From a virus (taxonomy: Duplodnaviria > Caudoviricetes): a DNA stretch of 64,000 bases. Location: IMG/VR virus record IMGVR_UViG_3300044551_000092, positions 128,001 through 192,000 of that record; one strand, written 5' to 3'. Position 1 is the first letter of the stretch, and each line of letters starts with the position of its first letter. Positions 1-60,415 of this stretch are shown one piece after another. Both the position numbers and the translations under genes were made by a program. The notes beneath the pieces are model-generated. The model did no database searches and was not told the DNA's origin. It was given only the letters and a program-made list of their open reading frames with translations.

Positions 1-138
1 ACGATATGGGAAGCTATCACACCGGAACAGTTATTTTATTTCGATGATAATATTAGTCCTTTAGAAAATAAATTGAAACTAAAGATGAAATTATCTAATG
101 GTTCAAAACTACTTAGTTATGCCCTGACATGGGTGTAA
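1..138 (+). CDS. 3' end of a putative virion structural protein (partial)
   Basis: Frame 1 is open from base 1 (TIWEAITPEQ...LLSYALTWV) to TAA at 136-138; structural role inferred from context. Confidence 0.6.
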   Translation, partial: TIWEAITPEQLFYFDDNISPLENKLKLKMKLSNGSKLLSYALTWV

Positions 139-156
139 GTAAAGGAGCAAAGGATA

Positions 157-603
157 ATGACCGTACAACGAATTAGTTTAGTTCCAGATAGTGAAAAAGA
201 TTATCTAATTATCAAGCAAAAGATTCTGGATCAACAGCTGACCAAAAAAGATTATGATCAGTTGCCGCCGGCAGAACAGCAGGTCGTCGAAAAGGCTTTA
301 TTTGATATTGCTTCTGACAAAGTTGAACCTAACATTGGTGCTTCAGCCCTAGAATTTGTTCTTTTCATGTTCATGAGAATTGTAAATAAAAAATTAGTAG
401 GCAAAAGCTTAACTGCGGATGATAAGATTATCGAGGCCTCATTAAACCGAATTACATCCATGCATCAGATTACAGACAGTAAATTATCGATCGATCAATG
501 GCTTTTTGACTACATGGCTTATGCGGAAGAAAAAGCAGCTAAAATTCTGCAAAATCGTAAAGAACACATTGCAAGGAAGGTTGAAATCACTGGTCATCAT
601 TAA
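157..603 (+). CDS. hypothetical phage protein
   Basis: 148 aa ORF with AAGGAG/AAGGA SD; no motif recognised. Confidence 0.7.
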   Translation: MTVQRISLVPDSEKDYLIIKQKILDQQLTKKDYDQLPPAEQQVVEKALFDIASDKVEPNIGASALEFVLFMFMRIVNKKLVGKSLTADDKIIEASLNRITSMHQITDSKLSIDQWLFDYMAYAEEKAAKILQNRKEHIARKVEITGHH

Positions 604-668
604 ATTCTTAGAAAAATCGGCTTTGCAAGATCTTTAGAAAAAACATACGATAAAACTGGTGATCTATC

Positions 669-1163
669 ATGGCTATAGAAACTGGTGATCTTATCTTTGT
701 GCGGGATCAGCCGGATCTTATTTCCAGATTAATTTGTTGGTTTACCGGCAGCCGTTATTCACACGTAGGAATGATCTATCAAGACGACTTGATCTATGAA
801 ATTAATTTATCCCGGCAACTCGCAATCTACCCCAATCGATATAAACATTATGATATCTATCGGTATAAAAAAGGCTTAACTCATTTACAAAAAATAATGT
901 TACAGGATCAAGCGGCAGCTGAAGCAAAGGTAAATGAAGGATATGATTTACCAAAAATCTTTGAATTTGCCTTGATGAAATGGATCAAGAAACCGTTTGT
1001 TTTGAAACAAAATAAAAAGAAAATCTGCTCTGAAATTGTAGATAATCTATATCTAAGTATTGGGATTGATCTTGTTCCTGAAAGAATTAATGGGGATGTT
1101 CGACCGGTTGATTTGGTTAAATCTTCACAGCTGAAAAGAATATATTCCTACGATCTTCGCTAG
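669..1163 (+). CDS. permuted papain-like (NlpC/P60, YiiX/YaeF-type) amidase
   Basis: GDLIFVR, YSHVGM (His), YD and ICSEIV (Cys) in the permuted His-before-Cys order. Confidence 0.8.
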   Translation: MAIETGDLIFVRDQPDLISRLICWFTGSRYSHVGMIYQDDLIYEINLSRQLAIYPNRYKHYDIYRYKKGLTHLQKIMLQDQAAAEAKVNEGYDLPKIFEFALMKWIKKPFVLKQNKKKICSEIVDNLYLSIGIDLVPERINGDVRPVDLVKSSQLKRIYSYDLR

Positions 1164-1201
1164 TAGGTCAATAAAAAAATCGTTCTAAGGAGGAAGAACT
1201 C

Positions 1202-1849
1202 ATGGCGGATGCACTTGAATCAAATTATTCAAATGAAGTTAATGTCCAGGCTGAAGCGCCAGTTCCAGATACACTTGCTCCGGGTATTCCAGCAAATCTT
1301 GCAGCACAAATTGCACAGGGCAAAGTAACCCTATCGTGGGATCCAGTTACCAAGAATCACGATAACTCTGATATAACAGATCTTGGTGGCTATAATATTC
1401 TGCGTAAACTCCACGATGAAGATGAATTTACTCAGATTGGTCAAGTCGATGCGACTCATACATCCTATGAAGATACAGACATCGTTGACGGTGCGACGTA
1501 TATCTATGCCGTTAATGCGTATGATACCGCAGAAACTCCGAATGTCGGTTTAAATTCTGAAGAACTGACGGTTAAAACTATTCCAGGCATTCCTCAAAAT
1601 CTTGCTGGCTCTTCAGCGGATGGTAAAGTTAATCTGACGTGGGACAGCGTTCTTAATGCAGAAAGCCCCCATACAAATGAGAACCTTGCTGGATATAACG
1701 TCTATCGTTCAACCACAACAGGGGAAGGTTACACGAAAATCGGCTCAACCGATAAAAATACGACAACTTATGAAGATACCGATGTTGAGGCAGGCACCAC
1801 TTATTATTATGTGGTAACTTCGTATGATAACAGTGGCGCTGCTGCTTAA
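1202..1849 (+). CDS. tandem fibronectin type III domain protein (putative virion decoration)
   Basis: Two repeats of P-NL...V-L-WD...GYN[IV]-R...Y-DT....G-TY-Y-V--YD; strong AGGAGG SD. Confidence 0.85.
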   Translation: MADALESNYSNEVNVQAEAPVPDTLAPGIPANLAAQIAQGKVTLSWDPVTKNHDNSDITDLGGYNILRKLHDEDEFTQIGQVDATHTSYEDTDIVDGATYIYAVNAYDTAETPNVGLNSEELTVKTIPGIPQNLAGSSADGKVNLTWDSVLNAESPHTNENLAGYNVYRSTTTGEGYTKIGSTDKNTTTYEDTDVEAGTTYYYVVTSYDNSGAAA

Positions 1850-1868
1850 ATCAAACGACTGTATTTTT

Positions 1869-1899
1869 GAGACGCAGGAGAACACTGCGTCTCTTTTTT
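1869..1899 (+). terminator. intrinsic terminator
   Basis: GAGACGCAG / CTGCGTCTC 9-bp stem followed by T6. Confidence 0.85.
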
Positions 1900-1972
1900 C
1901 ATATGTTCAAGGTATATGAAACATGGTACAATAAATTTAGAATGAATTTTCTAAAGAACGGGGTGTATCTCC

Positions 1973-3415
1973 GTGTCGTATGAAAAGAAAACCGATATTT
2001 ATGAATTGGTTAGTAATGATCGGGTAGCATTTGAACAAATTAGTCAATCAGATTTAAAGGGGAAAGACATCCCAAAAACAGATGAATTTTTAGGCCTGTT
2101 TTATCAACAGTCACAATGTACAAATCTTGTGTTTAAATTGACAGGTTCAGCAACCGATATTTATCTAAAAATTTTTTATGTCAATCAACTTCCGCTTGCC
2201 ACTGCCAAACATGCCTTTATCCTGTTTTGGACAGGCACGAGCTGGAGCCGTATTGTTTTCACGCTGAATGAAAAAGAACATGCATTTGAGATTCATACGA
2301 ATAAAACAGGCTACTATGCGGTAGGAATCCAGAAAAATTGGTATTCTCAAATTACGCAATCCATTGCAAATGAGTGGCCGCATTGGGCAGGAATTCGTAG
2401 CGCTATTTCTTCCGGCCAAATTTACTTGAATCAATATGCCATGATTTTTGAAGAAATCAAAGAGCAGATTCAATGGATTCGAGAACAAAAATATCTAAGT
2501 ACGGTGGATGTACATCAACTGGATTGGATTTATATTTACTCGTTACCGGTGCCATTAACGGCTGATGATACGATCACCCTAAAAGATGGAGACCATTTGG
2601 TAGAAGTCTTTGATAGCGTTTATCAATTCTTCGTCAATGATTCCAATCAGGGCGGCATCATTGATTATGAAAAAAGTCGCTTTTATTCGGTTGCTAAATA
2701 TGAACAGTTAAAATTATATACCAATAAAGGCACATTTAATTTGGTTGGCCAACCCTATCAGGTGTGGAACTCGCTCGATGATTTTGGCTTATTGCTCGAT
2801 GAACCGCGACGATTTTTAGAAAAAAACAAAGATTATATTGAACGATTATTGAATGTGTTTCGCTATCCATCGAACACAACGAAAACAGGCGTCGCAAACG
2901 GGGTGGGGCGAAACCTTAATCTGATTCAAAAGGTTACGTGGGTCGATGATACAAAAACACTGTTTATTCGTAATGATTCTGCGGCCTATATTGAACCACA
3001 TAGCATTCGTGTTGATGGCTATAAATTAGATGCAAGTGATTATACAATCGATGCCTCGTTAAATTTAAAAATCAATCCCATGAACCAACATAAGACACAT
3101 ATAGTGACTTTTATGAATAACTTGATTCAACATGAACTCTATAATCAGCAGGATATGGAACTGCAAAAGTTGATCTATCAAGATGACGGTCAAGCAACCT
3201 CAACGCTTTTACATTGGGTTGAACAGATAAATATGATTGCGCCGGTTATGTGGGATCAGATTAAGTGGGATCAGGGTTTTTGGGACACGATCAATAAAAA
3301 TCTGCTAAGTATCGGATATATACCAAATATCTGGGATTCCAATACGGATGTCTGGAAATCATATGTTATCAAGAAAGACAGATGGGAGGCGCAAAACATA
3401 TGGCAGACGGAGTGA
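1973..3415 (+). CDS. putative virion structural protein
   Basis: 480 aa ORF heading an operon of giant genes; function from context only. Confidence 0.55.
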   Translation: MSYEKKTDIYELVSNDRVAFEQISQSDLKGKDIPKTDEFLGLFYQQSQCTNLVFKLTGSATDIYLKIFYVNQLPLATAKHAFILFWTGTSWSRIVFTLNEKEHAFEIHTNKTGYYAVGIQKNWYSQITQSIANEWPHWAGIRSAISSGQIYLNQYAMIFEEIKEQIQWIREQKYLSTVDVHQLDWIYIYSLPVPLTADDTITLKDGDHLVEVFDSVYQFFVNDSNQGGIIDYEKSRFYSVAKYEQLKLYTNKGTFNLVGQPYQVWNSLDDFGLLLDEPRRFLEKNKDYIERLLNVFRYPSNTTKTGVANGVGRNLNLIQKVTWVDDTKTLFIRNDSAAYIEPHSIRVDGYKLDASDYTIDASLNLKINPMNQHKTHIVTFMNNLIQHELYNQQDMELQKLIYQDDGQATSTLLHWVEQINMIAPVMWDQIKWDQGFWDTINKNLLSIGYIPNIWDSNTDVWKSYVIKKDRWEAQNIWQTE

Positions 3416-6400
3416 TGAACCCTGATCAATTTCCAGACAGTGAATTGCCAAATCGAAATATTAAGCAAAACACTGACGATCATATTGTCTGGAAGACTGA
3501 TGAAGAGAAACAAAAAGTGATGTCTCCCGGTGTCATCGACGCCCCTTATCTTCAGGGTAAAACACAAAATCGGCCGATTAAAGCCATTAAATCTGGTGTT
3601 GGCGATCAAGACGATTTATTAGTGAAAAAGCCGGAAAAGGAAACTCTATCAAAAGATTTTAAAATATCCGCTCGGTTAGAAGGGGAGCAGCAGCACAGCA
3701 TTAATCACTTTCCAGGGATTGATTTTCAATACGGCATTCATTATAAGGGCCAATATTATGAAGATGACAACAGCCAGCACTACAAACACCGGGTCGATGC
3801 CTATCCGAAAAAAGTTTTAAAAGCTGAGATTACTCAAACCGATAAACATCCAGTTACACGTCCTTGGGTTGTTGGCGTAGACATTAATGGCCATGTTCGT
3901 AAGACCACATTGCATTATGCAGTAGAATGGAGCGGTCTGTATCAAGAAGAGGAAGTGCAGGGGGCTGCGGATCTGTTTACATATCAAAACGGGAATTTTA
4001 TCGGCCCTGGACCAAAAACAAATTCTTGGCACAAAGAGGGCGGCTCGGTCCAAAACTATGACAACCGATCGCATATGCAAGGTGTTGTGGCAAAAGAATT
4101 TTACGACTGGGATTCTTATGAGTGTGAATATGAATTTCAACCCATCCGCTCACTAAAATATCGCCCCGACACGGCAGCAACCGTTCCTTACAACGGCCGC
4201 TGGTACCGTCTGCCGGGCGCTGACGGCGATATCCTCGGCTTTGTGTTTAAGGCTAAGCCAGATAATAAAAACTTCTATCTGTTCCTCTGGGAGGCTCAGG
4301 ATAGGGTAATGAGTTCTTGGCGGGCTAAATCATTTAATGGTTATAACTGTTTAACCGGTGGTGTCAGCGATTATACGTTGGATAAGGCGGAACAGGTTTA
4401 CCGGAGGTATATGTCCTCATCCAACCAAGCCGCGCTTGGAATATATACTGGGCTTAGCTTGAGTACGGGGTCAAATTCAGATATTACAAGCTCACAATGG
4501 AGTAAGTGGACTCGCTGGTGTAACAGTGCCGGTTGGGGGAAACGCCATTATAAGATATATAAAGTAACAAATGGCGTCATGCATGAAGTACATGTGACGC
4601 CGCGAGGCAACAACAATGGCTGGAAACAAAACTGGATTGATGGTTCCGGCTACTTTCCCATGGATTACTTAAACAGTGTCAAAATACACGTAGAAGGACG
4701 ACGCGTACAGATTTATACCAAATCCTATAAATCAGGACATTATAACAGTGTTGGTTTTCAAAAAGCCTTTGACTTTAATGTCGCTTCGGGTTATGAACAG
4801 GGAAGCACGGGTATTGTTACCTTTTCACAGTCTGTAAAAATGACAAAGATCCGAGTATCCCGTTGGTTGCCTATGAACGGTCGAGTTCCATCATCGGGCT
4901 ATAGCGCATGGAGTGGAATCGGTTCGAAAAAGATAAGCTCTTCCGGATCATCTTACGTTGACAGCTCTGCGCGATCAATGGCCAGGCAAAAGTCTGGGCA
5001 ATCCGACCCAGAATATGAAGTTAAGAAAGTAACTGGTTTGGTCGAAAATAAAGAATATGGATCTATCTCTGCATCGGTAAATCGACCTGTCGTGCTTACG
5101 TCCACCAATCCAAAAGACGCGGGCGGTATCCGGACAATTACGCCGACACGTTCAGGGACGGCTTATATTACACCTGATCATTTTAATCAGGAGACTTGGC
5201 TGATGGTAATTAAAGATATACCCAGCCTTTTTAAAGAAACGATCAATAGTTTCTTAGCCAACAATCCAGAAATTGATCGAATTGCCTCTGTTGTTCCTCG
5301 GGTGATTAAACCCAATCATAAAGATGACGATGACTGGGATTTCGTGAATGGAGCGCTTTATATGTGGAACAGTGCCCCACCGATTACGCAAAAAACGAAA
5401 GACTACGCCGTCACTGTTTATGCATACGAAGGATTGAAACGAGTCGCTAATCTATGGGATGATTTTCAAGATTCCAAATGGGCAACTTATGTTCTACGGA
5501 TTATTGACAATCCAGATGATCCGACTGGCTTTAATCCAGATTTTGACAAACTGTACATCAAAGATAAAAAGCTTTACGCTCAAACGAAAGAATGGTATCT
5601 GGGGACTTATGATGCCGATATTAGCGATGTGGGAACAGTCACCAATCAAGCCAATGTTGAGATTGATATTCCGCCAATGCCTGAACATTTTATTTCACCG
5701 TCTACCGGAGAAGAAATGTATCATGGTTATACAGACGTGGATTTTCTCCTAAACCAGCTAGAACCGACGATCGTTAAAGATGTATGGATGTGGTTTAAGA
5801 GTAATCTGAGTCGCACAACCAAGAATACTCAATCGCCCTTAAACGTTCTGAATGGTAAGCCTATTATTAAGACGAATCTCATAAATGATAAAGTTGTTGT
5901 CCACTGTGAACCTCGTCCGCACTATATCCCTTGGGAGTCTGGCAAGTATATTGGATATGGCAAAGTCAACGGTAAGCGTCCATTCTTTTCTGCAGCACAT
6001 GGAAAAGCAGATTTAGCTAATGTGCCAACTAATGTGGTTTATATTGCTCCTGGAGTCAATCGCTTGTCCGACCCGATTATTGATGTCAGTGACGATCGAG
6101 TCAAATTTAAAATTAATCCAGATAAGACAGTCACTTTTTATTCGGATTATGAGGCTCCCTATGTATGGAAAACTCAATGGCATAGTCAGTGGAAAGATCT
6201 CCCGCTGGTTTACACCATACGTTCTGATGAGCAATGGATACGTCAGGTGTCCATTGATTTTAGTCAAGAAGATCTTGGCAATTATGATACTGGCAGTATT
6301 CAAGTTGAACGTATTCATGTTGTTCCAAGCAATCCTTTTGTGAATCTTTGGGCGGAAAAGGCTTTCGATAACCAAAAGAAAATCAACTATAATTTTGATG

Positions 6401-9291
6401 TCAAATGCGATATTCGCTACCCGTCGGTAGCACAAATTGACCTTAATAACTTTTTCGCCAATTGGAAAAATTACAATGAACTGAAAAACGGAGAAGGGCA
6501 GGAGGCCGATCCGAATAGCCCAAATGAGGGAGACTGGCATGGGCCCCCCGAAGCCGGCTATCCTAAAATCACAAACATCATCAACCAGAATGGCTTATCT
6601 GGCTGGTATAACCCGGCACATGCATCTCTCAAAGATTACACCTATCATTTTAAAGTGCAGGAGAAGTCTGGCTGGGATAATGACATGTATGGTGCCATGT
6701 TCCGCTTCGATCCAAAGACGTTAAATTTCTATTCGTTTGAGTGGGACGGCGGCGGCTACACGGCCGAGGGACATAACGGAATGAATATTATCCGCAATAT
6801 TTGTTTGGATCCGGAGAACTACGGAAAGCATTCACTGCATTATTCTAAAAAACAAATCGGCCATAACGACTTAAAATGGGTGCCGCTCAGCGAAGACATC
6901 CACGACGTATCAATAACCGTGCAGGGGCAGCAGATTCAGGTATATACCGATGGCGAAAAACGGATTGACGTGATTGATGACGATCCAGAGGCGCTTCTGT
7001 ATGGCGCATTTGGACCGCTCACCCTGTCGAACCCGGACACCTATTTCTGGGACTTGTCGCTTGAAACTTATGAAACAGCGACGATGACGCAGCACTTTGA
7101 AAATCAGCTGCCGATGCCGTTTGATGCTAACCTACATCCCGTTGAACAGCAAATCGTGACTGGTCTATTTGGCTACTTCCAGAGTTTCATTTCTAACTAT
7201 ACGAATGACTTGAGTGACGTGTCGCTTCTTTACACGATTCAAAATGACAAGAGCGACGTTTCGGTATATTTTAACAGGACCGGCAAGACAATGTCGTCAA
7301 ATCAGGATGATATTCCTTGTGGGACTGTGACGAACGCAGACGGCGGCAGTTCATCGACCTATACGGTCTATGGCGAGATCAAGGCGGAAACGCCTTATCC
7401 GTGGTCACCGATGCTGCATAACGGCTATTATTATTTTAACGAGAAAGAAAACTTTTTATTTGCAAACCCAATTGTTGAACAACACAATACTGTTCATATC
7501 ATTAATGTTTTAATTCTTTATCCTGCCGCTCTGCATGGCGACCCAGAAGGGAAAACAAATATTCAGCACGCTATTGAAAACTATGGAAACTTCAGTCAAT
7601 ATGAAAAGATTCATGCGGTCCAGGATGTCTATGAAAATTATAATAAATACAATGCCGATCACTTTGATGTATTAACTTTCTGTCCGGCTGACTGTAATGC
7701 AAGACAGGATATTACAGATGATATGATGAACTGGATCCGTGATTTCTACCACAAAGATAAGATTATTATTTTTACACACGACACGGCGACAATGTCTCAG
7801 GGGACGGGACTTTCAGGCAGATTTGGAACGTTGTTTCAAGAGATGGGTTTTACGCTTAATCCGCGAGAATATACCCGTGCTACAACTATTCGAAAAACTG
7901 TTCATGAAGAATGGATGGACTATCCGTATAAGCTGCCAGATGTCATGACAGTCACACATACGCATTGGAACTGGATTGATGGAGGAAAAGGATTATTTTC
8001 ATTCGGAAATAACGACAATGAATTCTGGTTGCGTAACATCGGAAACGTTTACTATTCCGAGTCGGGAGACGGGACTTATGATTGTAACGGCGAATACATC
8101 CAACCATTAAGTGAAGATGAGCAAAAAATTTGGGTTAACTTAATCATGAAAGTGGCCAAATGGCGGCACTATGATGAATTTGACCCACGAGAACCCATCT
8201 TAATGTCACGGCCAAAACAGGGTGCCCCAACAATTGTCAGAGCCAATGATGTTTTACTTCGGAAAACGAATTTTTATGATGGAGCAATGAAGCGAACTTT
8301 AGAAAAAACGGAGCGCTTCCACGGAAATGGACGTTCAAAATATTACTTACTGTATCAAGGCATAGACGGAGAGACATTAAAAGTCTTTGTAAATGATGAA
8401 AGCATTGAGGATTATATTTTTGATGCCGATCAGTCCAGCATTCAATTCATGCAGCAGTATAACGACCAAGATGTCATTGTCGTTAGTTATCATCTTCAGA
8501 AAAGTTATACAATCGATGAAAATTTTCAAGTCGGCGATGATGTGGCAAAGGTTATTGTTGATCCAAATATGAGCATCAATCAGTTAAATAACTTAGAAAT
8601 CATTTATGAGGGTACGGATTTAACTCCATTTTACCGAGCTAGTGAAGTAACTTTAAATCCAATTCTTACTCATAATCATAGTGGCTTTTTACGGTTGACT
8701 GAAAAGACAGATCAGAAGCCATCGCAATTAACCGTCATAGCCTCTCCAGATCATGCGGTTCCAGGAGATCAAATTATCATTACAGTGAGAGTTGAAGACC
8801 AAGACGGCAATCCCGTTGAAAAAGTCGGTGTAGTCTTAAGAAAAGAAGGAGCCGATTATAAAAACGGCCAAACAAATGAGGCAGGAGAAATCTATTTCTA
8901 TGACCAAATTGGTGCGGCACAAACAGTGACCTACCGAGCAATCTGTGATACTTTGCAACGAGATGTTTTAGTTTATGTTGCAAGCCAATCGACTTCGAAT
9001 CAGAATTTTATTGAGTTAAAAACATCACAGCCATCGTTATCAATTAAGCGTAAAGAGGAAGCTACAATATACTTAACGGTAAGAAATTCGGACTGGTCAG
9101 TTATGGCCAATCAATCTGTTTCAATATCTTATCTAAATAAACAGTTGACAGTATTAACCAATAAATATGGACAAGCAGCGATTACGTTAAACAGCGACGG
9201 ACAAAAAGCACAACTTGTTCCAATCAAAGTTCAAGCCACAATAGAAGGAATAAAAATTGTAAATGAAATCATTATTCAACTGGTTGATTAA
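3400..9291 (+). CDS. giant putative virion/fibre protein with two ConA/TSP-C-like lectin domains and C-terminal Ig-like (Big_1) domains
   Basis: About 1960 aa; GGAGG precedes ATG 3400; motifs DGDILGFVF..NFYLFLWE and DNDMYGAMF..NFYSFEWD; C-terminal ITVRVEDQDGNPV and TNKYGQAAITL. Confidence 0.65.
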   Translation: MADGVMNPDQFPDSELPNRNIKQNTDDHIVWKTDEEKQKVMSPGVIDAPYLQGKTQNRPIKAIKSGVGDQDDLLVKKPEKETLSKDFKISARLEGEQQHSINHFPGIDFQYGIHYKGQYYEDDNSQHYKHRVDAYPKKVLKAEITQTDKHPVTRPWVVGVDINGHVRKTTLHYAVEWSGLYQEEEVQGAADLFTYQNGNFIGPGPKTNSWHKEGGSVQNYDNRSHMQGVVAKEFYDWDSYECEYEFQPIRSLKYRPDTAATVPYNGRWYRLPGADGDILGFVFKAKPDNKNFYLFLWEAQDRVMSSWRAKSFNGYNCLTGGVSDYTLDKAEQVYRRYMSSSNQAALGIYTGLSLSTGSNSDITSSQWSKWTRWCNSAGWGKRHYKIYKVTNGVMHEVHVTPRGNNNGWKQNWIDGSGYFPMDYLNSVKIHVEGRRVQIYTKSYKSGHYNSVGFQKAFDFNVASGYEQGSTGIVTFSQSVKMTKIRVSRWLPMNGRVPSSGYSAWSGIGSKKISSSGSSYVDSSARSMARQKSGQSDPEYEVKKVTGLVENKEYGSISASVNRPVVLTSTNPKDAGGIRTITPTRSGTAYITPDHFNQETWLMVIKDIPSLFKETINSFLANNPEIDRIASVVPRVIKPNHKDDDDWDFVNGALYMWNSAPPITQKTKDYAVTVYAYEGLKRVANLWDDFQDSKWATYVLRIIDNPDDPTGFNPDFDKLYIKDKKLYAQTKEWYLGTYDADISDVGTVTNQANVEIDIPPMPEHFISPSTGEEMYHGYTDVDFLLNQLEPTIVKDVWMWFKSNLSRTTKNTQSPLNVLNGKPIIKTNLINDKVVVHCEPRPHYIPWESGKYIGYGKVNGKRPFFSAAHGKADLANVPTNVVYIAPGVNRLSDPIIDVSDDRVKFKINPDKTVTFYSDYEAPYVWKTQWHSQWKDLPLVYTIRSDEQWIRQVSIDFSQEDLGNYDTGSIQVERIHVVPSNPFVNLWAEKAFDNQKKINYNFDVKCDIRYPSVAQIDLNNFFANWKNYNELKNGEGQEADPNSPNEGDWHGPPEAGYPKITNIINQNGLSGWYNPAHASLKDYTYHFKVQEKSGWDNDMYGAMFRFDPKTLNFYSFEWDGGGYTAEGHNGMNIIRNICLDPENYGKHSLHYSKKQIGHNDLKWVPLSEDIHDVSITVQGQQIQVYTDGEKRIDVIDDDPEALLYGAFGPLTLSNPDTYFWDLSLETYETATMTQHFENQLPMPFDANLHPVEQQIVTGLFGYFQSFISNYTNDLSDVSLLYTIQNDKSDVSVYFNRTGKTMSSNQDDIPCGTVTNADGGSSSTYTVYGEIKAETPYPWSPMLHNGYYYFNEKENFLFANPIVEQHNTVHIINVLILYPAALHGDPEGKTNIQHAIENYGNFSQYEKIHAVQDVYENYNKYNADHFDVLTFCPADCNARQDITDDMMNWIRDFYHKDKIIIFTHDTATMSQGTGLSGRFGTLFQEMGFTLNPREYTRATTIRKTVHEEWMDYPYKLPDVMTVTHTHWNWIDGGKGLFSFGNNDNEFWLRNIGNVYYSESGDGTYDCNGEYIQPLSEDEQKIWVNLIMKVAKWRHYDEFDPREPILMSRPKQGAPTIVRANDVLLRKTNFYDGAMKRTLEKTERFHGNGRSKYYLLYQGIDGETLKVFVNDESIEDYIFDADQSSIQFMQQYNDQDVIVVSYHLQKSYTIDENFQVGDDVAKVIVDPNMSINQLNNLEIIYEGTDLTPFYRASEVTLNPILTHNHSGFLRLTEKTDQKPSQLTVIASPDHAVPGDQIIITVRVEDQDGNPVEKVGVVLRKEGADYKNGQTNEAGEIYFYDQIGAAQTVTYRAICDTLQRDVLVYVASQSTSNQNFIELKTSQPSLSIKRKEEATIYLTVRNSDWSVMANQSVSISYLNKQLTVLTNKYGQAAITLNSDGQKAQLVPIKVQATIEGIKIVNEIIIQLVD

Positions 9292-46829: not shown

Positions 46830-46980
46830 GAAGTTGAGTAAAAATAATACCGTTGATGGTTGCAGCCATCAACGGTTAGGCAATTCCGCAAATGAGCGGA
46901 CAGCGCATCGGCAAAATCGAATATCTAATAATGATCCGCTTCAGCCACTGGACGGCATATGTAGCGGATCATTTCTTTTT
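46830..46980 (+). ncRNA. putative type I antitoxin RNA 1 (SR4/RatA-like arrangement)
   Basis: TATAAT near 46817; ends in an ATGATCCGCT/AGCGGATCAT hairpin plus T tract; antisense to the toxin 3' UTR. Confidence 0.65.
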
Positions 46981-47088
46981 ATTTGACAGCATCACCAGAA
47001 CGCCAATGATGCCAAGAATTCCGAAAATTACGGAACAAAAAACGCCCGCAATCTGAAACGCCAACATCAAGGCCTGATAATCTGTCAC
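46969..47088 (-). CDS. type I toxin peptide (BsrG/TxpA-like), 39 aa
   Basis: GTG start, AAGGGGGG SD; MTDYQALMLAFQIAGVFCSVIFGILGIIGVLVMLSNKKK has one TM helix and a basic tail. Confidence 0.8.
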   Translation of the reverse strand: MTDYQALMLAFQIAGVFCSVIFGILGIIGVLVMLSNKKK

Positions 47089-47228
47089 TTGCGCCACCCC
47101 CCTTCGTTGCCGGGGAGTCACTTATCCGCTCATATGCAAATTCATTGCCACTAAAATTATAGCATATGAAAATGTTCAAGCGGGAAATTATTAGTAAATA
47201 GATCAGAAGATAGAAAAGTTATTTGGTT

Positions 47229-47268
47229 AACATTACTTCGTCAAATTAACATTTTACGAAGTAATGTT
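47229..47268. other. loxP-like 13-8-13 inverted-repeat site (putative tyrosine recombinase site)
   Basis: ATTACTTCGTCAA-ATTAACAT-TTTACGAAGTAAT; perfect outer IR AACATTACTTCGT/ACGAAGTAATGTT. Confidence 0.55.
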
Positions 47269-47329: not shown

Positions 47330-47542
47330 TCATTTGCTTAGCTCCCTTTTTTGGGCTTCCCGTAAATTATCCAGAAGAAAAGCCCGCTTCAAGTCTGGCC
47401 ATTCTGCAAGAGCCAGCAGGGCTTCCTGAATCAGCGCGTCATAGGTTGACCGCTTGCCGGTGTGCCTGACAATCATGGCCGTATTAAACAGCATCTGACG
47501 CGTTAAATCATTAACCTTAATCGCTTTTCGCATATCTTTCAT
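47330..47542 (-). CDS. small putative DNA-binding (ribbon-helix-helix-like) protein
   Basis: AGGTG SD; KAIKVNDLTRQML...TYDALIQEAL. Confidence 0.5.
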   Translation of the reverse strand: MKDMRKAIKVNDLTRQMLFNTAMIVRHTGKRSTYDALIQEALLALAEWPDLKRAFLLDNLREAQKRELSK

Positions 47543-48572: not shown

Positions 48573-48601
48573 TTGCCCCAGAATGCCGAAATAGGTATAA
48601 T
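48573..48601 (+). promoter_or_regulatory. sigma-A promoter of antitoxin RNA 2
   Basis: TTGCCC-17 bp-TATAAT. Confidence 0.6.
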
Positions 48602-48607
48602 AATGAC

Positions 48608-48742
48608 AGGAAGTCAGTAAAATAATACCGTTGGTGGTAGCACACCAACGGTTTGGCAACAGACTGCAAATGCAGAACCGCCACCACAGCTGAAATAATC
48701 CGCCATAGCCTTGGTCAAAAGCATAAGGGCGGATTATTTTTT
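48608..48742 (+). ncRNA. putative type I antitoxin RNA 2
   Basis: Shares AAAATAATACCGTTG..CAACGGTT with RNA 1; ends in an AATAATCCGCC/GGCGGATTATT hairpin plus T tract. Confidence 0.65.
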
Positions 48743-48850
48743 ATGATCTGTTTTTGACAGCATTTCCATGATCCTTACAACAACTTCTATTACCAAGAGA
48801 ATTAAACTGGCAAATGCGATTGCAAGGGTCAGTGCTTCGTATGCTGTCAC
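48734..48850 (-). CDS. type I toxin peptide (BsrG-like), 38 aa
   Basis: GTG start, AAGGGGGG SD; MTAYEALTLAIAFASLILLVIEVVVRIMEMLSKTDHKK. Confidence 0.8.
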   Translation of the reverse strand: MTAYEALTLAIAFASLILLVIEVVVRIMEMLSKTDHKK

Positions 48851-48938
48851 GTCTATGCGCCCCCCTTCATACGGGAGTCTGCGGCATAGGCGGTCCGCTC
48901 TTTGCTTTTTCTGTGCCTTTACAAATTATATCATAATA

Positions 48939-49760
48939 TCAGCTACTTTCTTCTCTGATGAGATCATAAGCTAATAATACATAAGAAATATATCTATCCA
49001 TCCTGATGTACTTCTCTTCTTTTTTAAATGCCACGGTAGATGTTAAGAAATTACGACTGTCATTATGATTTGCAGTTGAAACTGTGTATTGAAAAACTTC
49101 TGGAGAGACATAAAATTTATATTTATGTTGCTTTAATTTTTTGAATGTCATATTAGTAATCTTTTCTTTATTTTTACTCCAATCTGATAAATCAAGTTGA
49201 CCCAATTCAGAATATAATAGTTTACTTATATGATTATTTTCTCTCACAATATGATAATTACGCAAAGTCGTATCGCTATTTTCATCTGTTAAATTCAACT
49301 TTATTGTATCTTTTGCGATATAATTCATAAAATAATCTTGTCCAAGTAGGTTAAATTCGGTCTTATCCATTTTGAAATGATCTATCCAAATGTTCCTACG
49401 ATCTTTTTGGCTCGGTATACTTAAATCAATTCTAAAAAATGGATTGCTATCAAGATCCCCCTTTTTATTTACCGGAATTTTGTTATCAAGAAATGCATAC
49501 CATTTTCCGGTAAGATTAAACCATTCAGGATGTTCTGAAGCATTATCATCTGGGTTTGGTTTTGCATTTTTCTTTGCTTCTTTTTCTTCTACTTTCTGTA
49601 CATCTTTATACTTCATGGGATGTTTCATATCACGAGATTGCGAAGCTGTCGGATTTTCTTTATTTTTGTAGGTTTGTATCCTAGACTGATAAAATTGAAA
49701 TCCGGAAAGAATAAGTATAACGATGGCAACAAGCATAGTTATTTTTTTCACCCTGTACAC
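48939..49760 (-). CDS. membrane-anchored or exported protein
   Basis: Basic N-terminus then hydrophobic helix; GAGG SD; AT-rich. Confidence 0.6.
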   Translation of the reverse strand: MYRVKKITMLVAIVILILSGFQFYQSRIQTYKNKENPTASQSRDMKHPMKYKDVQKVEEKEAKKNAKPNPDDNASEHPEWFNLTGKWYAFLDNKIPVNKKGDLDSNPFFRIDLSIPSQKDRRNIWIDHFKMDKTEFNLLGQDYFMNYIAKDTIKLNLTDENSDTTLRNYHIVRENNHISKLLYSELGQLDLSDWSKNKEKITNMTFKKLKQHKYKFYVSPEVFQYTVSTANHNDSRNFLTSTVAFKKEEKYIRMDRYISYVLLAYDLIREESS

Positions 49761-58261: not shown

Positions 58262-58609
58262 GTGCAAACATTCCTGACAAAGGAACGTGCCATATTAAAA
58301 GTATGCCTAATCCACGAAATTGAAAAAAGCCCTTCCTATGGATGGGCTTATCACTCAACGATCGCTGAACAGATCCCTGGATTTAAACCAAGTAAATCTG
58401 AGATATATAAATCACTTCATGAATTAGCAGCAGCTGATATTGTTAAGCGCTCAAGGAGAAAAAGAAATGACGAGGGATTGCAGGAAATTATTGTTTATAC
58501 ATTCACATCTGGAGGCTATGCCAAAGCACAAAGATATAAAAAATTAGTTTATGATGACCTGATTAGGAGTCAAACTATGATAAAGCACTTCTTAAGTACG
58601 ATTTTTTAA
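58262..58609 (+). CDS. rtp: replication terminator protein homologue
   Basis: FL.K.RA.LK, YG, GFKP..SE.Y.SLHEL, LQE...Y.F, A..YKK....DL.R match B. subtilis RTP. Confidence 0.85.
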   Translation: MQTFLTKERAILKVCLIHEIEKSPSYGWAYHSTIAEQIPGFKPSKSEIYKSLHELAAADIVKRSRRKRNDEGLQEIIVYTFTSGGYAKAQRYKKLVYDDLIRSQTMIKHFLSTIF

Positions 58610-58619
58610 GTACCCCCCC

Positions 58620-59828
58620 CTATCTTCTATTTCCGAAGTATATTTTTTTTGCTTTTTTTTCTATTGCCGGGAATTCTTTTTGGATATAATAATAATCAAA
58701 TTCAGGCATTTGATGATCTTCAAAATAATCTCTTAATCGGCCTTGAAGCCACCAATCTGGATAAACTTCACGGTTATCGATATTTCTGACATTTTTTCTC
58801 TCGCAATAATCTAGAGCTAATTTCTGAAAGCGTTGCCGCTTTTTTTCTTCTTCAGTTAATGAATGATCATCCGGTTTAGTAGAAGGAACGGGTTCATCAG
58901 CATCTTGATCTTTTTCAGTTGGTACTAAAGCATAATTATTTTTAATAGCAGCTACAATAAAAGCAGCTAAATTTTTAATTTTTGTTTGTTTTTTTAAACT
59001 AAATTGTAAATTGGCCTGGATTACATATGAATCATATTTCTTAACCAGAGCTGCAGCTTGGAATCTGTCCACCCCACACTTTTCCAATTCATTAATTAAA
59101 TCTTGATTAACCAAAGTTTTTATTTTTTTTGGCTTTTCCTGTACATGAAAAATAAATCCAATAATTCGTCGGCTTTCTTTTACGTCTTCGTATGAAAATG
59201 TAATATCTGTTAATTCGTTAATATGTTTCTGTGCATCGTTTAGTATCCGCAATTTGAAATGGCTGACACGTTTATATTTGGTTTTTGGTAGCATAAGTAT
59301 TTCTCGTAAATCCTTTATTGTCATTGAAAAAGCGCGCTGAAATTCGTGTTCCTTCAAAAGTTCATAAATAACCATATCATAAGGTGAGCTGAGCCGCAGG
59401 ATATGTTTGAGTTGAAATTTATAATAATGATCTTTTAAATTTAATAAATACGGTTTCAATTTATCTGTAAATCTTAAAATAACTTCGCCATCATCATATT
59501 CTGAATAATCGGCCCAGTTAATATATTTTTCTTTCTTCCCTTCTGTAATCCTAACCACTTTGGTCTGCAGACCGAGAACGGTTTTTTTAACTTGCTCATA
59601 ATAATTTTTAGATTTGATGCCTAAGATATTAGCAATTCGTTTAACACTCATTTTTTTAAATTTAAACTCATTATCTTTTGGACCGATGTCGGCAATAAAT
59701 ATATAAATGATCCGTCGTTCGTCCAGCGTCAAATCCTGCACGGTTTCGATTAATTGATTGGATTTTTTTACTAGGTTATTCTCGCTAATTGTGACAGGAA
59801 GTACTTCATGTTCGAGTGATGCGACCAT
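58620..59828 (-). CDS. Rep_3-family plasmid replication initiator
   Basis: VKKSNQLIE...LTLDERRI, LKPYLLNLK..Y, L.S.Y...IYELLK, LREIL, EIN-like HINELTD; GAGGAG SD before ATG 59828. Confidence 0.9.
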   Translation of the reverse strand: MVASLEHEVLPVTISENNLVKKSNQLIETVQDLTLDERRIIYIFIADIGPKDNEFKFKKMSVKRIANILGIKSKNYYEQVKKTVLGLQTKVVRITEGKKEKYINWADYSEYDDGEVILRFTDKLKPYLLNLKDHYYKFQLKHILRLSSPYDMVIYELLKEHEFQRAFSMTIKDLREILMLPKTKYKRVSHFKLRILNDAQKHINELTDITFSYEDVKESRRIIGFIFHVQEKPKKIKTLVNQDLINELEKCGVDRFQAAALVKKYDSYVIQANLQFSLKKQTKIKNLAAFIVAAIKNNYALVPTEKDQDADEPVPSTKPDDHSLTEEEKKRQRFQKLALDYCERKNVRNIDNREVYPDWWLQGRLRDYFEDHQMPEFDYYYIQKEFPAIEKKAKKIYFGNRR

Positions 59829-59889
59829 ATATAAGACTCCTCGACTGGTTCTTGTTTCCATTATAAATTTAATAGAAAAAACGTGCTAC

Positions 59890-60415
59890 TCCTTTATTTG
59901 TGGCCTTTCAGATAATTTGACAGCATGTTGCAATTTATTACAAATATTAAGAGATTGCAAGTATTAATGTTTAAGAGGGGCGGAAAGCCTTGATACAATT
60001 GGGCTGAGAGATTTAAAGGCCACAAATAGGGGGCGAAATGCCACAAATATAGGGTTAAGAGCCACGGATATAAGGTGAATTGCCACTGATTAAGGGCTAA
60101 ATATCACATTTAAAGGGGGAAAATGCCACAGATAAGGGGTAAGTGCCACAGATAAGGGGCGAAAGAAATCTACTTACTAAGAAATTTAAAAGCCACAGAT
60201 AAGCTTCTTTCTAAATGATTAAATGCCACAAATAGGGGGCGATATCAATTAAAATGCCACAGATTTGGGGCGTACGTTTCCTTAAAAAGTAAATATCAGT
60301 TTTATAAAGCTTGTATTACCCCAAATCTGTGGCATTTAACTGACTCAACTGAAGAGTTGTCGCTTATTTGTAACGGTTCATGATTGATCTATTCTAGTCG
60401 CCCCTTATTTGTGGC
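59890..60415. repeat. iteron array / replication origin
   Basis: About 13 copies of GCCACA(A/G)AT(A/T)(A/G)GGG: direct at 60019, 60040, 60061, 60082, 60103, 60125, 60145 (about 21-bp period), 60192, 60225, 60256; inverted at about 59891, 60319, 60401. Confidence 0.88.

What the first reader, a model, noticed from the sequence alone, without database searches (positions are those of the whole stretch)
47229..47268. loxP-like 34-bp site in a Gram-positive phage-plasmid
Seen: 47232-47265 reads ATTACTTCGTCAA-ATTAACAT-TTTACGAAGTAAT. Against loxP (ATAACTTCGTATA-GCATACAT-TATACGAAGTTAT) the arms match 10/13 and 11/13, and the 8-bp asymmetric spacer also ends in ACAT. It is intergenic and has no U tract on either strand, so it is not a terminator. 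Known: P1 uses lox/Cre for circularisation and dimer resolution. Inference: this is a resolution or circularisation site for a Cre- or Xer-like recombinase not encoded in this window, potentially a new recombinase/site pair.
Basis: partly seen in the sequence, partly recalled or inferred. Interest (0 to 1): 0.75.

Follow-up and report, generated by a model that had tools for sequence, protein, structure and literature searches.

The report
Host-type dif site on phage-plasmid
The 34-bp loxP-like palindrome copies both binding arms of the chromosome-unlinking (dif) site of Sporolactobacillus-type bacteria, so this 206-kb phage-plasmid, which has no recombinase gene, most likely borrows the host XerS enzyme to keep its plasmid copies single.

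Summary
Window 47232-47265 is a 14-6-14 near-palindrome, extendable to 18-bp arms at 47229-47268. It occurs once in the 206-kb record and is far beyond chance.

It resembles loxP, but its real match is closer. Read on the minus strand, both 14-bp arms are identical to a site found once per genome in 26 of 37 Sporolactobacillaceae genomes. That host site lies 85 bp to 1.9 kb from xerS and about half a chromosome from dnaA, so it is the host dif. Only the 6-bp central region differs (TGTTAA versus the host's conserved TATAAT).

The phage record has no tyrosine or serine recombinase. It does have a Rep_3 replicon, an RTP homologue and an actin-like partition gene. A complete 8-kb Sporolactobacillus plasmid, also without a recombinase, carries the same arms with another spacer. 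In two related viral contigs, homology ends inside such a site.

Best reading: a dif-like multimer-resolution site served by host XerS, with a spacer that keeps it from recombining with the chromosome. Nothing has been tested experimentally.

The scan has noted comparable cases on other DNA (e1-5359799, e1-2840220). This is a new variant of a known kind, of moderate interest.

The parts
47232..47265 (-). 34-bp dif-like core site (14-6-14). On the minus strand it reads ATTACTTCGTAAAA-TGTTAA-TTTGACGAAGTAAT.
   Evidence: Both arms are identical to the Sporolactobacillus dif in L019 and L020. The site is single-copy in the genome.
47252..47265 (-). Arm equivalent to the host dif left arm (ATTACTTCGTAAAA on the minus strand)
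   Evidence: It matches G002 and G003 14/14. Other host species vary only at position 6 (A, G or T).
47246..47251 (-). 6-bp central region: TGTTAA on the minus strand, TTAACA on the plus strand
   Evidence: The host central region is TATAAT (TATCAT in three genomes), so 3/6 positions match and there is a mismatch within the first three positions from either end.
47232..47245 (-). Arm equivalent to the host dif right arm (TTTGACGAAGTAAT on the minus strand), including the conserved asymmetric G
   Evidence: It matches 14/14 in G002 and G003. TTTGACGAAGTAA is invariant in all 26 host sites.
47229..47268 (.). Extended palindrome: 18-bp arms, 17/18 complementary, 4-nt centre
   Evidence: As RNA it folds at -22 kcal/mol on either strand, z about -6.
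58620..59861 (-). Rep_3 plasmid initiator. This is context: it is the replicon whose multimers the site would resolve.
   Evidence: Pfam Rep3_N at 111 bits and Rep3_C at 63 bits. It is 30-38% identical to Bacillales plasmid initiators.
58262..58609 (+). Replication terminator protein (RTP) homologue next to rep (context)
   Evidence: Pfam RTP at 83 bits.

Best explanation
The site is a dif-type core recombination site for the host's single Xer recombinase, XerS. Two XerS monomers would bind the two 14-bp arms and exchange strands at the edges of the 6-bp central region. When homologous recombination joins two copies of the circular plasmid prophage into a dimer, the two directly repeated sites recombine and restore monomers. 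The Rep_3 replicon and the actin-type partition system can then segregate them. Because the central region (TGTTAA) differs from the chromosomal one (TATAAT) near both cleavage positions, phage-by-phage recombination is allowed while fusion with the chromosomal dif is disfavoured. Shown here: sequence identity of the arms, the dif character of the host site, absence of a recombinase in the element, and the plasmid-type genes. Inferred: XerS binding, catalysis, the resolution role, and any dependence on FtsK.
For: (1) The arms are 28/28 identical to the sites in Sporolactobacillus L019 and L020, including the asymmetric TTTG/AAAA position.
(2) That host site behaves as a dif. It occurs once per genome in 26 of 37 family genomes, with an almost invariant spacer. 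An above-cut-off xerS lies 85 bp to 1.9 kb away in all six genomes checked. It sits 44-51% of the chromosome away from dnaA in three genomes.
(3) The 206-kb record has no PF00589 match, no PF00239 match, and no hit to an HMM built from the site-linked recombinases.
(4) Plasmid-type functions are present: Rep_3 and RTP and the C-terminal part of an actin-like ParM/Alp7A-type protein.
(5) L070 is a complete circular 8,017-bp Rep_3/MobA plasmid of a Sporolactobacillus genome with no recombinase. It carries the same arms with spacer ACTTAA.
(6) In L001 and L078, 88.7% homology ends inside the site: the left arm is shared, while the spacer and right flank differ. This is a breakpoint signature of site-specific exchange.
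(7) In L053 and L023, the same kind of site lies directly in front of a Xer-like recombinase gene.
(8) Host link: many 65-90% nucleotide matches between window 43-62 kb and Sporolactobacillaceae genomes, and a shared CRISPR repeat type.
(9) The site lies 371 bp from the cumulative GC-skew maximum, where the two gene arms converge.
(10) XerS recombines plasmid-borne difSL in vivo (PMC1914069, PMC2965235).
Against: There is no experiment. The true host species is not identified. The record is a linear contig that starts inside a CRISPR array, so a recombinase gene could lie in missing sequence, although CheckV rates the record 100% complete. No close relatives of the phage were found, so conservation of the site within the lineage is untested. 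The site is only about 13 kb from the Rep_3 origin. The skew peak coincides with the switch in gene orientation, so it may reflect transcription and not replication. No discrete FtsK-guiding word emerged. Host genomes also hold one XerD-like gene, so the acting enzyme is assigned only by adjacency.
Confidence: 0.62

Rival explanations
1. The site is an IMEX-type attachment site. The phage-plasmid uses host XerS to integrate into the chromosomal dif, as CTXphi does with XerCD and LME-1 does with XerL.
For: The arms are identical to the host dif. Plasmids carrying difSL integrate at the chromosomal difSL through XerS (PMC1914069). LME-1 mimics the dif of a single-recombinase system (PMC9765430).
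Against: [quoted passage not shown] No tandem dif / dif-like pair was seen in 37 family genomes. The element carries plasmid replication and partition genes.
Confidence: 0.12
2. The site is a Xer-dependent exchange point. It lets co-resident replicons that carry dif-like sites fuse and swap modules, as pdif sites do in Acinetobacter plasmids, and it is not mainly a resolution site.
For: The homology break at the site between L001 and L078. The window spacer shares its last four bases, TTAA, with the small plasmid L070. Cointegrate formation at XerC/D sites is documented (PMC5790767).
Against: There is only one site in the 206-kb record, so no module is bracketed. No flank is shared with any other element.
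Confidence: 0.1
3. The site is an RNA or DNA hairpin with no recombination role. It could be a 3' stabiliser or atypical terminator of the 70-aa gene's transcript, or the operator of that small, possibly ribbon-helix-helix, protein.
For: It forms a stable hairpin on either strand (-22 kcal/mol, z about -6). It lies 62 nt after the stop of gene 47330-47542. The protein atlas gives weak RHH/CopG-like leads for that protein.
Against: There is no U tract. Exact identity of both arms to a host dif, with only the loop-forming centre changed, is not expected for a hairpin. No homologue of the 70-aa protein occurs beside any other site of the family. The site lies downstream of that gene, not at its promoter.
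Confidence: 0.06
4. The site is an inert remnant or chance acquisition of host dif-like DNA with no present function. Alternatively, it is a target of a Cre-like enzyme from another co-resident element.
For: Nothing has been tested experimentally. The region carries host-like mobile cassettes: type I toxin-antitoxin loci with many host copies.
Against: Both arms are intact, including the conserved asymmetry, while the flanks share nothing with the host. An independent plasmid keeps the same arrangement.
Confidence: 0.1

Closest known systems
XerS/difSL of Streptococcus and Lactococcus (PMC1914069, PMC2965235, PMC5357621)
   Same: A single Xer recombinase whose gene sits next to its dif. The site has two imperfect inverted arms, with an asymmetry between left and right. 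The arms have a T-rich/CG/A-rich skeleton (TTTCCGAAAA versus CTTCGTAAAA). XerS acts on plasmid-borne copies.
   Different: difSL is 31 bp with arms of unequal size and a longer reported central region. Here the site is 34 bp, 14-6-14 and almost palindromic. The host family is Sporolactobacillaceae, not Streptococcaceae. The copy studied here sits on a phage-plasmid.
Plasmid sites served by host XerCD: ColE1 cer, pSC101 psi, Acinetobacter pdif (PMC5357621, PMC5790767)
   Same: A replicon without its own recombinase carries a dif-like core and relies on the chromosomal Xer enzymes for multimer resolution.
   Different: Those systems use two recombinases, and cer and psi need about 180 bp of accessory sequence with PepA plus ArgR or ArcA. 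No accessory sequence or factor is evident here, and the host is Gram-positive.
Cre/loxP of phage P1 (P1 record X03453.1)
   Same: A phage-plasmid with a 34-bp inverted-repeat site. The arms share the ACTTCGT core (10/13 and 11/13). The likely role is the same: dimer resolution of the plasmid prophage.
   Different: P1 encodes Cre next to loxP, while this element has no recombinase. The parse that fits the relatives here is 14-6-14, not 13-8-13.
LME-1 and the Coxiella plasmid dif sites with XerL in Legionellales (PMC9765430)
   Same: Mobile elements and plasmids carry mimics of the dif of a single-recombinase Xer system.
   Different: [quoted passage not shown] Here the centre differs and the element carries plasmid functions.
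Bacillus cereus group plasmid prophages such as pBtic235 (PMC8026635)
   Same: Large tailed phages of Bacillales kept as plasmids, with ParM-like partition.
   Different: Those encode their own XerS-like or Xer-family recombinase. This one does not.

Membership tests
Xer/dif-type core site (single-recombinase, XerS class) | Two inverted recombinase-binding arms separated by a short central region | tested here: met
   14-6-14 arrangement; the arms are 13/14 complementary.
Xer/dif-type core site (single-recombinase, XerS class) | The arms match a bona fide chromosomal dif: single-copy, conserved, near the terminus, linked to xerS | tested here: met
   28/28 arm positions match L019 and L020. 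The host site occurs once per genome in 26 of 37 genomes, beside xerS, and 44-51% of the chromosome from dnaA.
Xer/dif-type core site (single-recombinase, XerS class) | A cognate recombinase is available in the same cell | tested here: inconclusive
   None is found in the phage record. XerS is present in the inferred host family, but the actual host strain is unknown; the host link rests.
Xer/dif-type core site (single-recombinase, XerS class) | One site per replicon, placed where strand polarity converges | tested here: inconclusive
   The site is single-copy and 371 bp from the cumulative GC-skew maximum. However, the skew tracks gene orientation, and no specific FtsK-guiding word was found.
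Xer/dif-type core site (single-recombinase, XerS class) | Binding and strand exchange by the recombinase | not testable with these tools
   This needs EMSA and a two-site deletion assay.
Cre/loxP | A Cre-family recombinase encoded by the element, next to the site | tested here: not met
   No PF00589 match anywhere in the 206 kb, and no hit with my own HMM.
Cre/loxP | 13-bp arms and 8-bp spacer matching loxP | tested here: not met
   Arms match 10/13 and 11/13 and the spacer 4/8, against the verified loxP. The site's relatives show a 14-6-14 register.
IMEX attachment site | Central-region homology with the host dif on at least one side, and integrated copies next to dif | tested here: not met
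   3/6 central positions match, with mismatches near both ends. No paired sites were found in 37 genomes.
cer/psi-type plasmid resolution site | Accessory sequences and accessory proteins next to the core | not tested
   No conserved flank is shared with L070 or the host. Accessory factors are unknown for XerS.
Intrinsic terminator | G+C-rich stem followed by a U tract | tested here: not met
   The site was not called by the scan. The stem is A+T-rich and no T run follows on either strand.

The most novel reading that the evidence does not exclude
One host XerS serves several replicons in the same cell lineage: the chromosome, this jumbo phage-plasmid, small Rep_3 plasmids and small phage-like elements. 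All keep the same binding arms, but each has its own 6-bp central region. This would be a natural counterpart of engineered heterospecific lox variants, giving each replicon private dimer resolution and preventing fusion between replicons. More broadly, loxP would be one member of a prokaryote-wide family of dif-type sites with an ACTTCGT core, used with XerS, XerC/D-like and archaeal XerA enzymes.
Probability: 0.35. Interest if true: 0.6.

Novelty: new variant of a known kind. Interest (0 to 1): 0.5.

Why it matters
It explains how a 206-kb phage-plasmid with no recombinase gene can still avoid plasmid multimers. In the papers I could search, elements exploiting host Xer enzymes were described for XerCD and XerL; I found none for XerS hosts, for Bacillales or for a jumbo phage. 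It defines an uncharacterised XerS/dif pair (34 bp, lox-like geometry) in Sporolactobacillaceae. It also points to the phage's host family. The pattern of conserved arms with replicon-specific spacers is directly testable, and it could supply orthogonal recombinase/site pairs as genetic tools.

Tried and rejected
- Cre/lox membership: rejected, because no recombinase gene is present and the 14-6-14 register fits the relatives better.
- Terminator: rejected, because there is no U tract.
- Operator of the 70-aa neighbour: the protein has no Pfam or PHROG family and only weak RHH-like atlas leads. No homologue lies beside any other site.
- Relatives of the phage: nothing was found in INPHARED with the local DNA, in viral contigs with the ligase or DnaE, or in PLSDB with the site. 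Conservation within the phage lineage therefore could not be tested.
- FtsK-guiding polarity: k-mer skew gave only generic purine-rich coding-strand words once the CRISPR array was masked. This is inconclusive.
- ParM by PF06406: no match, and the control search was also silent. An actin-like C-terminal domain was found by Pfam instead.
- The exact difSL sequence could not be read from the papers' text, so only the half-sites quoted in PMC5357621 were compared.

Full report
**The observation**

Window 47232-47265 reads ATTACTTCGTCAAATTAACATTTTACGAAGTAAT. I confirmed the loxP sequence against the P1 record X03453.1, where it is annotated as the loxP recombination site.

It has 18-bp arms at 47229-47268, 17/18 complementary, around a 4-nt centre. 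The pattern is unique in the window, with 0.01 matches expected, and unique in the whole genome. Only one other locus in 206 kb has a perfect inverted repeat of 13 bp or more with a spacer of 14 or less. Twenty Markov-simulated genomes gave 0 in 19 cases and 2 in one.

The site is intergenic. It lies 62 nt downstream of a 70-aa gene (47330-47542, minus strand) and upstream of a small membrane-peptide gene. It has no T tract and was not called as a terminator.

**The replicon**

The window is bases 128001-192000 of a 206,290-bp IMG/VR virus record with 39% G+C. The record is classed as linear, and CheckV rates it 100% complete.

It has no match to the tyrosine recombinase family PF00589 or the serine recombinase family PF00239. 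It also has no match to an HMM I built from the recombinases found next to related sites.

It does carry plasmid-type functions:
- a Rep_3 initiator (window 58620-59861) and an RTP homologue (58262-58609);
- the Rep is 30-38% identical to Bacillales plasmid initiators;
- the C-terminal part of an actin-like ParM/Alp7A-type protein near genome position 67.5-68.0 kb.

Earlier notes of this scan had proposed the phage-plasmid lifestyle. I verified only these parts of that proposal.

**A family of related sites**

I scanned public collections for the arms with a free centre. This returned one viral contig (L001). With slightly shorter arms it returned 12 viral loci and 55 genomic loci.

In most of the matched loci, the sequence can be read as 14-bp arms around a 6-bp centre, with the consensus ATTACTTCGTAAAA-N6-TTTTACGAAGTAAT; some are plain extended hairpins or look like chance matches.

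Six loci have a tyrosine recombinase within about 3 kb:
- In L053 (a Bacillota MAG) and L023 (a Dehalococcoidales MAG), the site sits between a promoter-like sequence and the start codon of a XerC/D-like gene.
- In L048 (Methanobacterium), the neighbour is XerA.
- In L020 (Sporolactobacillus), the neighbour is XerS, at 370 bits against a curated cut-off of 267.

**The key match**

On the minus strand the window site reads ATTACTTCGTAAAA-TGTTAA-TTTGACGAAGTAAT. The sites in two Sporolactobacillus species (L019, L020) read ATTACTTCGTAAAA-TATAAT-TTTGACGAAGTAAT. Both 14-bp arms are identical, including the one position that breaks the palindrome. Only the central six bases differ.

**The host site is a dif**

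- Across 37 genomes of that family, 26 hold exactly one copy of TTACT(A/G/T)CGTAAAA-TATAAT-TTTGACGAAGTAA. The spacer is TATCAT in three of them.
- xerS scores above the curated cut-off and lies 85 bp to 1.9 kb from the site in all five further genomes checked, as it does in L020.
- In the three genomes where dnaA lies on the same large contig, the site is 44%, 48% and 51% of the chromosome away from dnaA.
- Each host genome has only one other XerD-like gene.

Single copy, strict conservation, a position near the terminus and linkage to the recombinase gene are the criteria used to define difSL, difH and the Legionella dif (PMC1914069, PMC5357621, PMC9765430).

**Link between phage and host family**

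Besides the arms, window 43-62 kb has many 65-90% nucleotide matches in these genomes, including 90% over 507 bp in G003. The record's CRISPR repeat recurs with 1-3 mismatches in nine of the family genomes.

**Support from other elements**

G019 contig 30 (L070) has an 88-bp terminal overlap, so it is a complete circular plasmid of 8,017 bp. It carries Rep_3, a MobA/MobL relaxase and a MerR-like protein, and no recombinase. It carries TTTACTACGTAAAA-ACTTAA-TTTGACGAAGTAAA. Its Rep is the only part related to the phage record. Two unrelated recombinase-less Rep_3 replicons thus keep the host arms with private spacers.

In the viral contigs L001 and L078, 88.7% identity runs for 2.6 kb up to the site. 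The left arm is identical, the spacers differ, the right arm is kept apart from one base, and the right flanks are unrelated. That is what exchange at the central region would leave behind.

**Position in the genome**

Cumulative G-C skew reaches its maximum at genome position 174,861. The site is at 175,232, where the two oppositely oriented gene arms converge. The minimum is at 60,215.

A window of plus or minus 371 bp covers 0.36% of the genome. The skew coincides with gene orientation, however, and the Rep_3 origin is only about 13 kb away. I therefore treat this as suggestive only. A search for polar words gave only generic purine-rich coding-strand k-mers.

**Mechanism**

The following rests on established knowledge of tyrosine recombinases and is inference here. 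Partner sites must match in the central region for strand exchange, so sites with different centres do not recombine with each other, while identical copies do.

The phage centre differs from the host centre at positions 2, 4 and 6. There are therefore not three matched bases at either end. This fits a site meant to recombine with its own copy in a dimer and not with the chromosome.

XerS acts on plasmid-borne difSL and depends on FtsK in Lactococcus (PMC1914069, PMC2965235). Whether FtsK is needed here is unknown.

**Rivals**

- Integration at dif (IMEX) is disfavoured by the spacer, by the lack of paired sites in 37 genomes, and by the plasmid genes.
- A hairpin or operator role does not explain why both arms are identical to the host dif while the centre differs. 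The neighbouring 70-aa protein has no family match and no homologue beside any other site. The protein atlas gives only weak ribbon-helix-helix-like leads.

**What is known**

Plasmids that use host XerCD (cer, psi, pdif), IMEX elements, and mimics of a single-recombinase dif in Legionellales are all described (PMC5357621, PMC5790767, PMC9765430). Plasmid prophages of the Bacillus cereus group usually encode their own Xer-like enzyme (PMC8026635). I found no paper on elements exploiting XerS, nor on a Sporolactobacillus XerS/dif system.

This scan has noted comparable cases on other DNA: a P1-like phage-plasmid carrying a XerCD dif, and a 14-6-14 XerS-type dif in gut Clostridia that is also carried by small viruses and plasmids. 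I did not test either.

**Limits**

There is no experiment, no identified host strain and no close relative of the phage. The contig starts inside a CRISPR array and may lack sequence.

Noticed in passing
G000:C1:28-4000 (outside the window, left end of the record): A CRISPR array of about 58 repeats (GTCGCACTCTTTATGAGTGCGTGGATTGAAAT, spacing 65-70 bp) starts at the very end of the 206-kb record. The same repeat, with 1-3 mismatches, occurs in 9 of 37 Sporolactobacillaceae genomes. The contig may be broken within the array.
   Followed up: partly
L070 (G019:C30) 1-8105: A complete circular 8,017-bp Rep_3/MobA-MobL plasmid (88-bp terminal overlap) with a dif-like site at 351-382 and no recombinase. 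A MerR-type coiled-coil protein ending in KKGFFGRLF reads through the junction.
   Followed up: yes
L001:8618-8651 and L078:2541-2574: Two related small phage-like contigs (terminase, portal) are 88.7% identical up to a dif-like site and unrelated beyond it. In L001, roughly 30-bp direct repeats (8570-8600 and 8800-8830) flank the site. L078 carries an AAA_21 ATPase and an IS3-type transposase on the variable side.
   Followed up: partly
L016-L069 (genome-contig hits, mostly Methanobacteriaceae): Methanobacterium, Methanobrevibacter and Methanosphaera genomes hold several sites of the type TTTACTTCGTTATA-N6-TATAACGAAGTAAA, some at contig ends. L048 has XerA 2 kb away. They may be the archaeal dif plus dif-like sites of integrated elements.
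   Followed up: no
L053:6667-6696 and L023:3871-3900: The same palindrome lies directly between a promoter-like sequence and the start codon of a XerC/D-like recombinase gene. This suggests a combined recombination site and autoregulatory operator.
   Followed up: no
window 46830-47180 and 48600-48940: Small membrane-peptide genes, each with a conserved ACCGTTG..CAACGGT terminator hairpin, flank the site region (candidate type I toxin-antitoxin loci). Window 46880-47166 has dozens of 70-93% nucleotide matches across Sporolactobacillaceae genomes.
   Followed up: partly
G000:C1:26561-26599 (outside the window): The only other perfect inverted repeat of 13 bp or more with a short spacer in the genome (AAGCCTTAATTCTTG ... 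CAAGAATTAAGGCTT). It is unrelated to the dif-like arms.
   Followed up: no
L020:5700-5790: The chromosomal dif of this Sporolactobacillus is flanked by extra partial half-sites (ATTACTTCGTAAT on the left, GGGAAGTAAT on the right). They may be accessory binding sites or scars of past insertions.
   Followed up: no
L071 (G022:C1:95004-95035) and L072 (G023:C9:108061-108092): Second, more diverged dif-like sites of the L001 type (TTATAC right arm) occur in two host genomes, in G022 far from dif. In G022 the site lies between housekeeping genes (a methionine ABC transporter lipoprotein and an epimerase).
   Followed up: partly
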